A stretch of 64,000 nt of DNA, taken from contig OZ219788.1 of assembly GCA_964291285.2 (NCBI GenBank), forward strand, positions 32,001 to 96,000. Reading direction: 5' to 3'. Source of the DNA: Alphaproteobacteria bacterium. GTDB taxonomy: Bacteria; Pseudomonadota; Alphaproteobacteria; Bin95. Below, piece by piece: positions 43,585 through 45,455 of the stretch. The notes beneath the pieces are model-generated. The model saw only the letters and a program-made list of their open reading frames with translations. It did no database searches and was not told the DNA's origin. The stretch's first letter is position 1. Every line of letters starts with the position of its first letter. Position numbers and translations under genes: made by a program.

Positions 43585-44331
43585 TGAGGCGAATGCCGCC
43601 CTTCAGTACATCGATCCACATTGCCGCATCATCTACAAGGAATTGCCCTTGAACTGCCACGGAATCGGACCGACTCTTCCTTCATGCGGGCAATCGACGA
43701 GCCCGCGCGGGTGACCGCGCTACTCGGGCCGACCAATACCGGCAAAACGTATGCCGCCGTGCAACGCATGCTCGCGCACGAGTCCGGCATGATCGGTTTC
43801 CCGCTGCGTCTGCTCGCGCGGGAGAATTACGACCGCGTCGTTGCCGTCAAGGGCCCCGGCGCGGTGGCGCTGGTGACAGGCGAGGAAAAGCTGATCCCGC
43901 CCAGGGCGCGCTATTTCGTCTGCACCACCGAGTCCATGCCGCTCGACCGGCCCGTGGCCTTCCTCGCCGTGGACGAAGTGCAGATGGCGGCGGACCCCGA
44001 GCGCGGCCATATCGTCACCAATCGCCTGCTCCATGCGCGCGGCGGGCACGAGACGATGTTCCTCGGCGCGGAGACGATCCGGCCCCTGTTGCGCCAGCTG
44101 GCGCCCGAGGCGGTTGTCGAAGACCGGCCCCGCTTCTCGCGGCTCGACTATTCGGGCTACCGAAAGGTCACGCGCCTGCCGCCGCGCTCCGCCGTGGTCG
44201 CCTTCTCCGCTGGCGAGGTTTATCGCCTGGCGGAGCTCGTCCGCCGGCAGCGGGGCGGCACCGCCGTGGTGCTGGGCGCGCTCAGCCCGCGCGCGCGAAA
44301 CGCCCAGGTCGGAATGTACCAGGCGGGAGAG

Positions 44332-45455
44332 CGACTGTGTTGTCGGTCAAGCTGTTTTCCACGGGGTTCGGTCTCTGAGGATAGCGTTGAGGATTGTGAG
44401 GAGCTTTCGTGTGACGGCGGTGAGGGCAGCCTTTTTGGTTTTTCCCTCCGCGATCAGGTGGCGATAGAAGCGTTTGAGGGTTGGGTTATGCCTGGAGGCG
44501 GTGAGGGCAGCCATGTAGAGGGTTGCGCGGACGTTGGCGCGTCCTCCCCATATGGTTCTCTTTCCGCGCATGGTTCCGCTGTCGCGGTTGAAGGGCGCGA
44601 CGCCGACGAGCGCGGCGATGCGCCTTCGGCTGAGGGTTCCGAGTTCGGGGAGATCGGCGATCAGGGTTCGTGCGGTGGCGTCACCGACCCCGGGAACGCT
44701 TTTGAGGAGGTCCTCGGCCTGGCGCCATGCGGGGGATTTGCGGATCGCATCGCCGAGCTCGGTTTCGAGGTCGGAGAGTTCGCGTTGCAGGGTGGCGAGC
44801 ACGCGGTCGACGCTGCGGATCGTGCGACGGCTTGTGAGGCGCCTCCTGCGGTTTCTCTCCGCGGTCATCATCGCGACGATCTGGCGCCGCCGGGCGACCA
44901 GCTCGGCGAGCGCGCGGGCCTGCTCGTCAGGCACCGGACGGGGCTCGGGATGGACCGCCTCGGCGAACTGTGCGATCGCCGCCGCATCGAGGGCGTCGGT
45001 CTTGGCGAGCCGGCCGGTGGCGCGGGCGAAGTCCCGGATCTGGCGCGGGTTGACCACCGCCAATGGCAGGCCCGCCGCGCAGAGCGCCGCCGCGACCGTG
45101 ACCTCGAAGCCGCCCGTCGCCTCCAGCACCACGAGGGCAACCTCCAGCCCGCCCAGGCGCGCCGACAACTCTTCCAGGCCTTTGCCGTCGCGCGCGACGG
45201 CAAAGGCCTCCCCGGACGGGCGCAGATGCACGTCCAGACGATCCTTCGCCACGTCGATGCCAACGAATATCCGTTCCATGTCCCGTCCTTGCAAATGCGG
45301 TCTCACACTGCGGACCAAGCGACTGTTCGGGTTCAAAGGAACAGCGGACGGGGAACCATGCTCTCCCGCGGTCTTCATAACCTGGGTGCTAGCGGTCTCC
45401 CGTCCGCTCCCGCTGTTGCGACTATAGCTGCAACAACGATCCGGAGAGATACAAG
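44332..45455 (-). mobile_element. IS110-family element; recombinase 44347-45279
   Basis: GIDVAK, LEATG, KTDALDA, DSG motifs; no terminal IRs; 2-bp CT core at both junctions. Confidence 0.95.
45280..45440 (-). ncRNA. Predicted IS110 bridge RNA
   Basis: 5' hairpin 45414-45435; 10-bp stem 45343-45352/45399-45408; target match 45361-45369; donor matches 45317-45326 and 45288-45293. Confidence 0.8.

What the first reader, a model, noticed from the sequence alone, without database searches (positions are those of the whole stretch)
44330..45455. IS110 insertion with a bridge RNA whose guides can be read against its own donor and target
Seen (minus strand): the pre-insertion target is AGTCCAC-CT-CTCCCGC and the circle junction is ACAGTCG-CT-TGTAT. 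The 176-nt non-coding end contains, 5' to 3': a hairpin (45414-45435); a 10-bp stem (45399-45408/45343-45352) enclosing an imperfect left-target candidate AGACCGCT (45391-45398) and a 9-nt complement of core plus right target (45361-45369); a 10-nt match to left donor plus core, ACAGTCGCTT (45317-45326); and a wobble right-donor guide TGCAAG (45288-45293). Circularisation creates TTGACC-17-TATCTC. Established: this order, the CT core and the donor closely match IS621 bridge recombination (donor ACAGTATCTTGTAT as I recall it). Inference: a new natural bridge recombinase whose insertion here was driven mainly by long right-target pairing despite a poor left-target match.
Basis: partly seen in the sequence, partly recalled or inferred. 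Interest (0 to 1): 0.75.

Follow-up and report, generated by a model that had tools for sequence, protein, structure and literature searches.

The report
IS110 insertion with its bridge RNA
This is a recently active mobile element of the known IS110 type that carries its own guide ("bridge") RNA, has 13 identical copies in the genome, and here has cut a helicase gene in two; it is a clean natural example of a known system, not a new kind.

Summary
Window 44330-45455 (minus strand) is a 1124-bp IS110-family element flanked by the CT core. Empty sites in 7 related genomes read GTAGTCCAC-CT-CTCCCGCC. The element splits a Suv3-like helicase gene. The genome holds 13 copies at 100% identity.

The 176-nt 5' end plus the first codons fold into an IS621-like bridge RNA: a 5' hairpin, a target-binding loop and a donor-binding loop. 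Compensatory changes across 43 orthologues support the fold.

The left-target guide is wrong. AGACCG is a conserved stem/linker segment that covaries within the RNA. The real guide is the next 9 nt, CTAGCACCC (45384-45392). Across 41 guide types it tracks target positions -4 to -1, and the right guide tracks +1 to +5 (0 of 2000 shuffles as good).

The 12 sites with both flanks read (G)CAC-CT-CTCC(C/T). Five lie in an intergenic repeat family (191 left-arm matches). The window site is near-cognate, with 1 mismatch in 9 guided positions, so it is not a poor left match.

No RNA or circle data could be obtained. Verdict: a real, ordinary new member of a known kind.

The parts
44330..45455 (-). Whole IS110-family element, counted with a CT at each end (1124 bp plus one CT core). 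No terminal inverted repeats.
   Evidence: 13 copies at 100% identity with these ends. Empty sites with a single CT in relatives. No inverted repeat joins the two ends.
45454..45455 (-). Left CT core copy
44330..44331 (-). Right CT core copy
44345..44350 (-). -35 box TTGACC in the 17-nt right end. It overlaps the transposase stop codon TGA (44347-44349).
   Evidence: TTGA[CT]N at this place in 57 of 57 distinct elements, and 17-nt spacing to TAT in 56 of 57.
45446..45451 (-). -10-like hexamer TATCTC in the left end. It forms a promoter only when the ends are joined.
   Evidence: Sequence only; no transcript data.
45411..45438 (-). 5' hairpin of the bridge RNA (RNA positions 18-45, counting 45455 as 1)
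   Evidence: The hairpin is poorly aligned among orthologues: 7 of 9 pairs show compensatory change but only 51% of cells are paired.
45343..45408 (-). Target-binding loop (positions 48-113). Basal stem 48-57/104-113, bulged A58, upper stem G59-C103, A60-U102, C61-G100, C62-G99.
   Evidence: RNAalifold finds 14 pairs, up to 18 sequences per pair with both sides changed. Helix 2 is 86% paired.
45384..45392 (-). Left target guide CUAGCACCC (positions 64-72). G67-C70 read target -4 to -1, C71 reads the first core base, C72 faces the core T as a mismatch.
   Evidence: Cognate against non-cognate match: -4, 0.66 v 0.32; -3, 0.88 v 0.48; -2, 0.92 v 0.29; -1, 0.94 v 0.81. Own sites: C at -1 in 12/12, A at -2 in 11/12, C at -3 in 11/12, G at -4 in 8/12.
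45370..45382 (-). Distal stem-loop of the target loop (GGUU/GACC, positions 74-86)
   Evidence: helix 3, 74% paired, no compensatory change
45361..45369 (-). Right target guide. GGGAG (positions 89-93) reads target +5 to +1 and AG (94-95) reads the core. G87 and C88 are conserved structural bases that also happen to complement +7/+6 of this site.
   Evidence: Cognate match 0.87-1.00 at +1 to +5 against 0.33-0.80 non-cognate. No signal at +6/+7: 0.17/0.19 in both.
45359..45360 (-). Handshake position of the target loop. C96 is complementary to donor G7 and not to target C7.
   Evidence: 10-nt perfect complement of 45360-45369 to the right-end/right-flank junction 44323-44332 (I17). The logic is from PMC11208158. 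C96 is invariant in A1.
45273..45342 (-). Donor-binding loop (positions 114-183). Lower stem GUUCC/GGAAC holds the start-codon region; upper stem is CCCG/CGGG.
   Evidence: Helix 4: 5 of 5 pairs with compensatory change, 81% paired. Helices 5-6: 90-100% paired.
45317..45326 (-). Left donor guide ACAGUCGCU(U), identical to right end + core (+1)
   Evidence: Unique 10-mer in the window, 0.06 expected. Orthologues with right ends ACGGTCG or ACAGCCG carry the same change in this guide.
45288..45296 (-). Right donor guide AUUUGCAAG. It is complementary to core + TGTAT with two looped-out U and one G.T, the discontiguous 9-on-7 pattern described for IS621.
   Evidence: CAAG is invariant in A1.
45286..45287 (-). 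Handshake position of the donor loop. G169 is complementary to target C at -1. It is also part of an AAGGA Shine-Dalgarno-like run 6 nt before the ATG.
   Evidence: Target -1 is C in 12 of 12 own sites. L058 has T at -1 and A at this position. Inference.
44347..45279 (-). Transposase/recombinase gene, 310 aa, start MERIF. Catalytic D9, E53, D95, D98 and S234.
   Evidence: PF01548 at 3.4e-24 and PF02371 at 4.2e-20. IS621 transposase 8wt6 at E=1.5e-38 with the catalytic residues aligned. Orthologue matches begin at this ATG.
45176..45209 (-). 34-nt perfect palindrome inside the gene (codons about 24-35), conserved as a helix in orthologues. Role unknown.
   Evidence: (I4)
45456..45464 (-). Left target half-site GTAGTCCAC
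44321..44329 (-). Right target half-site CTCCCGCCT
43621..47276 (+). Suv3-like helicase gene split by the insertion (43621-44329 and 45456-47276). The frame reads ...QAGE|VDYLVATD... once the element and one CT are removed.
   Evidence: PF22527 DEXQc_Suv3 at 3.6e-26 on the first part. Uninterrupted in relatives.

Best explanation
This is an IS110-family insertion sequence of the IS621 type, moved by a DEDD/serine recombinase that is steered by a bridge RNA encoded in the element's own left end.

Inferred cycle, by analogy with IS621:
1. Excision joins right end to left end at one CT. That places TTGACC 17 nt upstream of TATCTC and switches on transcription of an RNA of about 170 nt.
2. The donor loop of this RNA holds the joined ends. 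[quoted passage not shown] AUUUGCAAG pairs discontiguously with the top strand of CT-TGTAT.
3. The target loop holds a genomic site of the form GCAC-CT-CTCCC. GCACC pairs with the bottom strand and GGGAGAG with the top strand.
4. Ser234 cuts after CT. Strand exchange is helped by the two handshake bases, C96 with donor G and G169 with target C.
5. The element ends up flanked by CT.

Its usual landing place is the CT-core variant of an abundant intergenic repeat. The window copy is a near-cognate hit (CCAC-CT-CTCCC) inside a helicase gene.

Shown here: the ends, copy number, empty site, protein family and catalytic residues, RNA fold with compensatory changes, and guide-target and guide-donor covariation. 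Inferred: transcription, circle formation and catalysis.
For: Ends and empty site:
- 13 copies at 100% identity.
- 7 of 7 related-genome loci carry the uninterrupted site with a single CT. A contig in run X4 skips exactly 1124 bases.
- Depth over the element is about 12 times that of the flanks in runs X1 and X3.

Protein:
- PF01548 plus PF02371.
- IS621 and ISCro4 transposases at E 1.5e-38 and 2e-38 over the full length. D9, E53, D95, D98 and S234 align with the IS621 catalytic set (and residues named).

RNA fold:
- z = -2.7 against shuffles.
- RNAalifold on 43 orthologues gives 28 pairs, 14 with compensatory change.
- My full structure is 79.1% paired, against 72.4% in shuffles and 38-49% when slid. 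Covariation score is 0.296 against 0.162, with 0 of 500 shuffles as high.

Guides:
- In 41 distinct guide pairs the summed matches are 172 against a shuffled 108 (sd 6.5) on the left, and 209 against 119 (sd 6.7) on the right. 0 of 2000 shuffles reach either value.
- The same diagonals appear in an unbiased column-by-position scan.
- Own sites fit: +1 to +4 in 12 of 12, +5 C or T in 12 of 12, -1 in 12/12, -2 in 11/12, -3 in 11/12, -4 in 8/12.
- The donor guide changes together with the right end in the ACGGTCG and ACAGCCG subgroups.

Promoter: TTGA[CT]N, 17 nt, TAT in 56 of 57 distinct elements.

The module order and lengths fit those given for IS621 in PMC11208158: target loop 66 nt against 65, donor loop 70 against 68, and a 9-nt left guide ending on the core.
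Against: - No RNA run holds the sequence, and only contigs could be laid. There is therefore no evidence here for the transcript, its ends or a circle.
- Rfam 15 has no matching family. The best hit is a sub-threshold one on the opposite strand. No independent covariance model was passed.
- The -10 hexamer TATCTC is a weak match to the sigma-70 consensus.
- The first three bases of the left guide (CUA) match none of the 12 own targets better than chance. Family-wide there is no signal at -7 to -5.
- The guide shows CC where the core is CT. Only 5 of 41 guide types do this.
- The 9-mer complement of the right target is not rarer than chance in the window.
- Orthologues are related, so the shuffle tests overstate independence. 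Two elements (L031/L032, L045) fit only with the left guide shifted by one base.
Confidence: 0.9

Rival explanations
1. The left-target guide is AGACCGCT (45391-45398), and the element landed here through a 9-nt right-target match despite a poor left match.
For: AGACCGCT ends in CT and sits on the 5' side of the first internal loop, where IS621 has its left guide. The right guide region complements 9 nt of this site.
Against: Positions 58-63 are AGCCCG (31) or AGACCG (15) in 57 distinct RNAs with many different targets. Position 60 covaries with position 102 inside the RNA, C-G in 24 and A-U in 15. None of the 12 own left targets resembles AGACCG. The next 9 nt carry the covariation. Positions +6/+7 show no family-wide pairing.
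Confidence: 0.03
2. The non-coding end is only a promoter and leader for the transposase. Target choice is made by the protein, and the complementarities are by-products of the element sitting in a repeat.
For: The right donor guide overlaps a Shine-Dalgarno-like AAGGA, and the ATG lies in a helix, so the region surely also affects translation. Five of the 12 own sites belong to one repeat family, which by itself would give a site consensus.
Against: Across 41 different guide pairs from many genomes the guides change together with unrelated targets. A repeat in one genome cannot explain that. The protein is a close relative of recombinases shown to be RNA-guided.
Confidence: 0.03
3. It is an IS1111-type element using a seekRNA encoded at the 3' end, with subterminal inverted repeats, rather than an IS110-type bridge RNA.
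For: It has the same two Pfam domains. Both groups are named together in a review listed (listing only).
Against: The right end is only 17 nt after the stop codon, and all structured RNA is 5' of the gene. No inverted repeats were found at or near the ends.
Confidence: 0.01
4. The element is a correct bridge-RNA IS but is no longer mobile in this genome.
For: No circle junction was seen in the contigs laid. 4 of 13 copies have a broken bridge-RNA region. 12 unoccupied CAC-CT-CTCC[CT]G sites remain.
Against: 13 copies without a single difference over 1126 bases and an intact gene in all 13 point to very recent spread. The empty helicase site in the closest relative, which is 96% identical in the flank, shows the insertion is young. 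Contigs cannot show rare circles.
Confidence: 0.1

Closest known systems
IS621 of Escherichia coli (bridge recombinase; PMC11208160, PMC11208158; PDB 8wt6)
   Same: Same two-domain protein with the same five catalytic residues (E=1.5e-38). CT core. The RNA lies in the left end in the order 5' hairpin, target loop, donor loop. A 9-nt left guide ends on the core. The right donor guide has the same 9-on-7 discontiguous pattern, and right donor positions 8-14 read the same (CT-TGTAT). Handshake logic at position 7. A promoter is rebuilt across the junction.
   Different: Only distantly related in sequence. The split of target reading is about 4+2+5 here, against 7+2+2 for wild-type IS621 (its left guide is 9 nt and its right guide 4 nt including the core). 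The left guide shows CC at the core. The right end is only 17 nt and its -35 box overlaps the stop codon. The donor left half is ACAGTCG, whereas IS621 has A and T at positions 6-7. The host is a GC-rich alphaproteobacterium. I did not hold the IS621 RNA sequence, so the RNAs were compared through the published module coordinates, not by alignment.
ISPpu9 / ISPpu10 of Pseudomonas putida (PMC12288879, search listing only; bioRxiv 10.64898/2026.03.19.712850, abstract only)
   Same: IS110-family elements whose insertions sit in repeated intergenic palindromic sequences. Here 5 of the 12 sites with both flanks lie in a repeat family with 191 left-arm matches, and the site is flanked by imperfect inverted repeats.
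   Different: Whether a target stem-loop adds specificity here, as reported for ISPpu10, was not tested. The window copy and several others lie outside the repeat.
ISCro4 transposase (PDB 9t56)
   Same: Second solved relative, E=2e-38 over residues 3-307.
   Different: Nothing beyond the sequence match was examined.

Membership tests
IS110 family (IS110 group) bridge recombinase system | Recombinase with an N-terminal DEDD RuvC-like domain and a C-terminal Tnp domain with a catalytic serine | tested here: met
   PF01548 at 3.4e-24 and PF02371 at 4.2e-20. D9, E53, D95, D98 and S234 align with the IS621 catalytic residues.
IS110 family (IS110 group) bridge recombinase system | No terminal inverted repeats. 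The element is flanked by a 2-nt core (CT) that is present once in the empty site. | tested here: met
IS110 family (IS110 group) bridge recombinase system | Structured non-coding RNA in the left end, upstream of the gene, with a 5' hairpin and two internal loops | tested here: met
   No Rfam model exists to test against.
IS110 family (IS110 group) bridge recombinase system | The 5' side of the first loop matches the left target in the same sense. The 3' side complements the right target. Both include the core and covary with the targets. | tested here: met
   The signal is limited to -4..-1 and +1..+5. The left guide here has CC at the core.
IS110 family (IS110 group) bridge recombinase system | The second loop matches the element's own joined ends | tested here: met
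   The guide changes with the right-end variants ACGGTCG and ACAGCCG.
IS110 family (IS110 group) bridge recombinase system | [quoted passage not shown] | tested here: inconclusive
   The sequence motif and 17-nt spacing are conserved in 56 of 57 elements. No transcript data.
IS110 family (IS110 group) bridge recombinase system | Circular intermediate and RNA-dependent recombination | not testable with these tools
   Only contigs were available, and no back-joint was seen.
IS1111 group (seekRNA) | Guide RNA encoded downstream of the gene, with subterminal inverted repeats | tested here: not met
   17-nt right end. No such repeats.

The most novel reading that the evidence does not exclude
This alphaproteobacterial subfamily may be a distinct working variant of bridge recombination, with four features:
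- The target is read as 4+2+5 nt.
- A left guide that mismatches the core T (CC for CT) is tolerated.
- The start codon and ribosome-binding site lie inside the donor loop, so that RNA folding and transposase translation exclude each other.
- A conserved 15-17-bp hairpin lies inside the first 35 codons. It is kept by compensatory changes that even alter the protein. It might set the 3' end of the bridge RNA, gate translation, or act on a single-stranded DNA circle.
Probability: 0.25. Interest if true: 0.45.

Novelty: new member of a known kind. Interest (0 to 1): 0.3.

Why it matters
This is a well-documented natural bridge-RNA element with 13 identical copies, 12 readable target sites in one genome and an exact empty site in relatives. 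That makes it a convenient natural test set for how few guide bases suffice in vivo: 4 on the left and 5 on the right. It also bears on how near-cognate hits disrupt genes. For engineering, it adds an orthologue from a GC-rich host that has a very short right end and a different partition of guide lengths. It does not change what is known about the mechanism.

Tried and rejected
- Rfam scan of 44000-45800 at E up to 10. No bridge-RNA family. The best hit was sX15 at 28 bits, against a threshold of 55, on the opposite strand. A further scan of four other copies with flanks found only a tRNA.
- RNA evidence. No RNA holder was listed among 24 runs. Four runs were laid, and all were contigs. No back-joint (circle) was seen, which says nothing either way.
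- I asked whether the repeat targets were next to tRNA genes. 1 tRNA was found in 6 loci, with no pattern.
- I tried to find the IS621 donor sequence as text in PMC11208160. It is not in the held text. Durrant et al.'s supplementary tables of IS110 orthologues may already list this element or its relatives.
- My first register guesses for the left guide (core at guide positions 7-8, or at 9) were dropped in favour of positions 8-9 after the scan and the table. L031/L032 and L045 still fit better with a one-base shift.
- My first pairing of positions 59-62 with 99-102 was poor at two pairs (columns 62/107 and 63/106). RNAalifold's register, G59-C103 and A60-U102, is the supported one.
- The orphan target-loop-like sequence on contig C1 is not conserved at that locus in the relatives searched. 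I did not pursue it.

Rows dropped:
- Of the 80 loci, 6 had no recognisable right end (L079, L088, L100, L102, L105, L106). Four had no usable left end (L059, L071, L097, L098). That leaves 70 loci plus 12 own sites, 82 rows in all.
- Requiring 12 nt of flank on both sides left 75 unique pairs.
- Alignment A1 used 43 of the 57 distinct RNAs. I left out 14 by hand, being close variants or rows with long insertions such as L082, L094 and L109.
- Alignment A2 used 55 of 56 rows. L089 was left out because its match began at residue 19.
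Full report
**What is there.** On the minus strand, window 44330-45455 holds a 1124-bp element bounded by CT on both sides. It encodes one 310-aa protein (45279-44347). 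The protein carries the two IS110 domains, PF01548 (3.4e-24) and PF02371 (4.2e-20). Its closest solved relatives are the IS621 and ISCro4 transposases, at E=1.5e-38 and 2e-38 over the full length. D9, E53, D95, D98 and S234 align with the IS621 catalytic set named in PMC11208158. The longer ORF that the ORF listing starts at 45378 is not the gene. Orthologue matches begin at MERIF, and the sequence upstream is conserved as RNA structure.

**Ends, copies, empty site.** The window's genome holds 13 copies at 100% identity. Nine are intact. Three are interrupted inside the left end, and one lacks its first 62 nt. All 13 carry an intact gene. Contig depth over the element is about 12 times that of the flanks in two runs. 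The flanks belong to a Suv3-like helicase gene (PF22527, 3.6e-26). In 7 of 7 loci fetched from related genomes the gene is uninterrupted and reads GTAGTCCAC-CT-CTCCCGCC or a close variant, with one CT. A contig in run X4 also joins 44329 to 45454. No terminal inverted repeats exist.

**The RNA.** From I took 80 loci encoding relatives at 61-93% identity. Seventy had recognisable ends, and these gave 57 distinct left-end sequences. They share the left end CTTGTATC and right ends of the form TTGAC...ACAGTCGCT.
- RNAalifold on 43 of them recovers the basal stem of a first domain with a bulged A and a short upper stem. It also recovers the stems of a second domain. Fourteen of 28 pairs show compensatory change.
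- A full hand-drawn structure is 79.1% paired, against 72.4% for shuffles and 38-49% when slid. Its covariation score is 0.296 against 0.162, with 0 of 500 shuffles as high.
- The lower stem of the second domain (GUUCC/GGAAC) includes the first codons. All five of its pairs show compensatory change.
- The module order and sizes fit the IS621 description in PMC11208158: stem, linker, 9-nt left guide, stem-loop, right guide, two handshake bases, linker, stem, and the same again for the donor.

**Guides.** I tabulated the 9 nt after the conserved AG[A/C]CCG and the 9 nt before the invariant C96, against 75 unique RNA-target pairs.
- An unbiased scan of every RNA column against every target position gave two diagonals. 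RNA positions 67-70 match target -4 to -1 in the same sense. Positions 89-93 complement target +5 to +1.
- Grouped into 41 distinct guide pairs, cognate match frequencies on the left are 0.66, 0.88, 0.92 and 0.94 at -4 to -1. Non-cognate values are 0.32, 0.48, 0.29 and 0.81.
- On the right, cognate values are 0.98, 0.93, 1.00, 0.87 and 0.97 at +1 to +5. Non-cognate values are 0.80, 0.49, 0.33, 0.36 and 0.52.
- There is no signal at -7 to -5 or at +6/+7. None of 2000 shuffles reached the observed sums. Relatedness among elements inflates such tests, but 38 different left and 27 different right 7-mers take part.
- For the window's element the left guide is CUAGCACCC (45392-45384) and the right guide is GGGAG+AG (45367-45361).
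- The 12 own sites with both flanks read C at -1 in 12/12, A at -2 in 11/12, C at -3 in 11/12 and G at -4 in 8/12. CTCC at +1..+4 is present in 12/12, and +5 is C in 8 and T in 4, the T forming a G.T pair.
- The left guide shows CC where the core is CT. This is a minority state: 5 of 41 guide types, against 29 with CT.

AGACCGCT (45391-45398) is the conserved AGACCG plus the first two guide bases. AGACCG or AGCCCG occurs in 46 of 57 distinct RNAs regardless of target. Its A/C position covaries with the opposite strand of the stem, C-G in 24 and A-U in 15. No own target resembles it. With the right guide assignment, the window site CCAC-CT-CTCCC has one mismatch in nine guided positions. The 9-nt right match is over-read. 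Its first two bases are structural and show no family-wide pairing. The 9-mer by itself is not rarer than chance in the window.

**Donor side and promoter.**
- ACAGTCGCTT (45326-45317) equals right end + CT + first left-end base. It is unique in the window, with 0.06 expected.
- Subgroups whose right end is ACGGTCG or ACAGCCG carry the same change in this guide.
- AUUUGCAAG (45296-45288) complements CT-TGTAT in the discontiguous way described for IS621: two flipped U and one G.T.
- The bases after each right guide follow the handshake rule. C96 pairs with donor G7 and not with target C7. G169 pairs with target C and not with donor G. The 10-nt perfect complement between 45360-45369 and the right junction 44323-44332 is the post-exchange pairing. 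One orthologue with T at target -1 has A at the donor-loop handshake position.
- Joining the ends gives TTGA[CT]N, 17 nt, then TAT in 56 of 57 distinct elements. In the window's element the -35 box overlaps the stop codon, leaving a right end of only 17 nt.

**Natural target.** Five of the 12 sites lie in an intergenic repeat whose left arm (GCGCCTGATTGC, up to 1 mismatch) occurs 191 times. Its commonest centre is CAC-GT-CTCCCG (25 copies), and the element occupies CT-core variants. Three unoccupied repeat copies, and 12 sites genome-wide, still match CAC-CT-CTCC[CT]G. Landing in repeated intergenic palindromes is known for other IS110 members: ISPpu9 (listing) and ISPpu10 (abstract). A 2026 preprint reports partial-match insertions for IS621 (abstract only). 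The window copy is a milder case, a single mismatch.

**What is missing.** I have no transcript, no circle and no activity data. Transcription, circle formation and catalysis are inferred from IS621.

**Comparison and verdict.** This is a member of the IS110-group bridge recombinase systems. Every defining feature that sequence can test is met. It differs from IS621 in four ways: guide-length partition (about 4+2+5), a CC core guide, a minimal right end, and host. It is not a new kind.

**Seen in passing.**
- A conserved hairpin lies inside the gene. It is a 34-nt perfect palindrome at 45176-45209. Across 55 orthologues it is 83.5% paired, and 10 of 15 pairs show compensatory change, some of which alter the protein.
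- Four of 13 copies are broken in the target loop by other insertion sequences. Two of these breaks are at the CTAG of the left guide.
- An orphan target-loop-like sequence lies on contig C1.

Noticed in passing
window 45176-45209 (minus strand, inside the transposase gene, codons about 24-35): A perfect 17+17-nt palindrome lies inside the gene. Across 55 distinct orthologues the 15-bp helix is 83.5% paired, against 32-47% when slid. Ten of 15 pairs show compensatory change, and some of these change the amino acid (A to S in L034, K to E in L038/L058). No U-run follows it. It could set the RNA's 3' end, gate translation, or act at the DNA level. None of these was tested, and I saw no mention of it in the passages I read.
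   Followed up: partly
G000:C3:1141028-1143613, C2:1145191-1148469, C3:1703378-1708049, C2:1294678-1295741 (loci L119-L122): Four of the 13 copies are broken within a 31-nt stretch of the target-binding loop (RNA positions 47-77). One break is a Mutator/IS256-like element with a 9-bp duplication. Two are a DDE_Tnp_1 element at the CTAG inside the left guide; one of those two copies has lost its 5' part. One is a 3.5-kb composite carrying Transposase_29 and IS1595-type genes. CTAG preference may explain two of the four. The clustering as a whole is unexplained.
   Followed up: partly
G000:C1:7920-7992, minus strand (L030 about 1501-1573): A 73-nt sequence is 81% identical to the target-binding loop (positions 46-117) and has its own guide-like segments. 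It lies just after a gene, with no donor loop or transposase nearby. It is not present at that locus in the relatives searched. It may be a relic or a free-standing loop.
   Followed up: partly
G000, many sites (e.g. C1:102977, C3:68622); listed: An abundant intergenic repeat family is present, with 191 matches to its 12-nt left arm. It contains GC-rich palindromes, a centre of the form ...GGRCGCAC-NT-CTCCCGTCGG..., and often a T-run. It serves as the main landing site of the element. No Rfam family or tRNA link was found.
   Followed up: partly
window 45273-45296: The 3' part of the right donor guide plus the handshake bases reads AAGGA, 6 nt before the ATG. The ATG region is the 3' strand of the donor-loop lower stem. 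The bridge RNA fold and translation start of the transposase therefore look mutually exclusive.
   Followed up: no
window 45307-45421, plus strand: A weak Rfam hit to Xanthomonadaceae sRNA sX15 (28 bits, threshold 55) lies antisense to the target-binding loop and uses the same long stem. It may be chance, or that family may be related to IS110 left ends.
   Followed up: no
window 41782-43188, minus strand: A 468-aa ORF lies just upstream of the split helicase gene. I did not test what it is.
   Followed up: no
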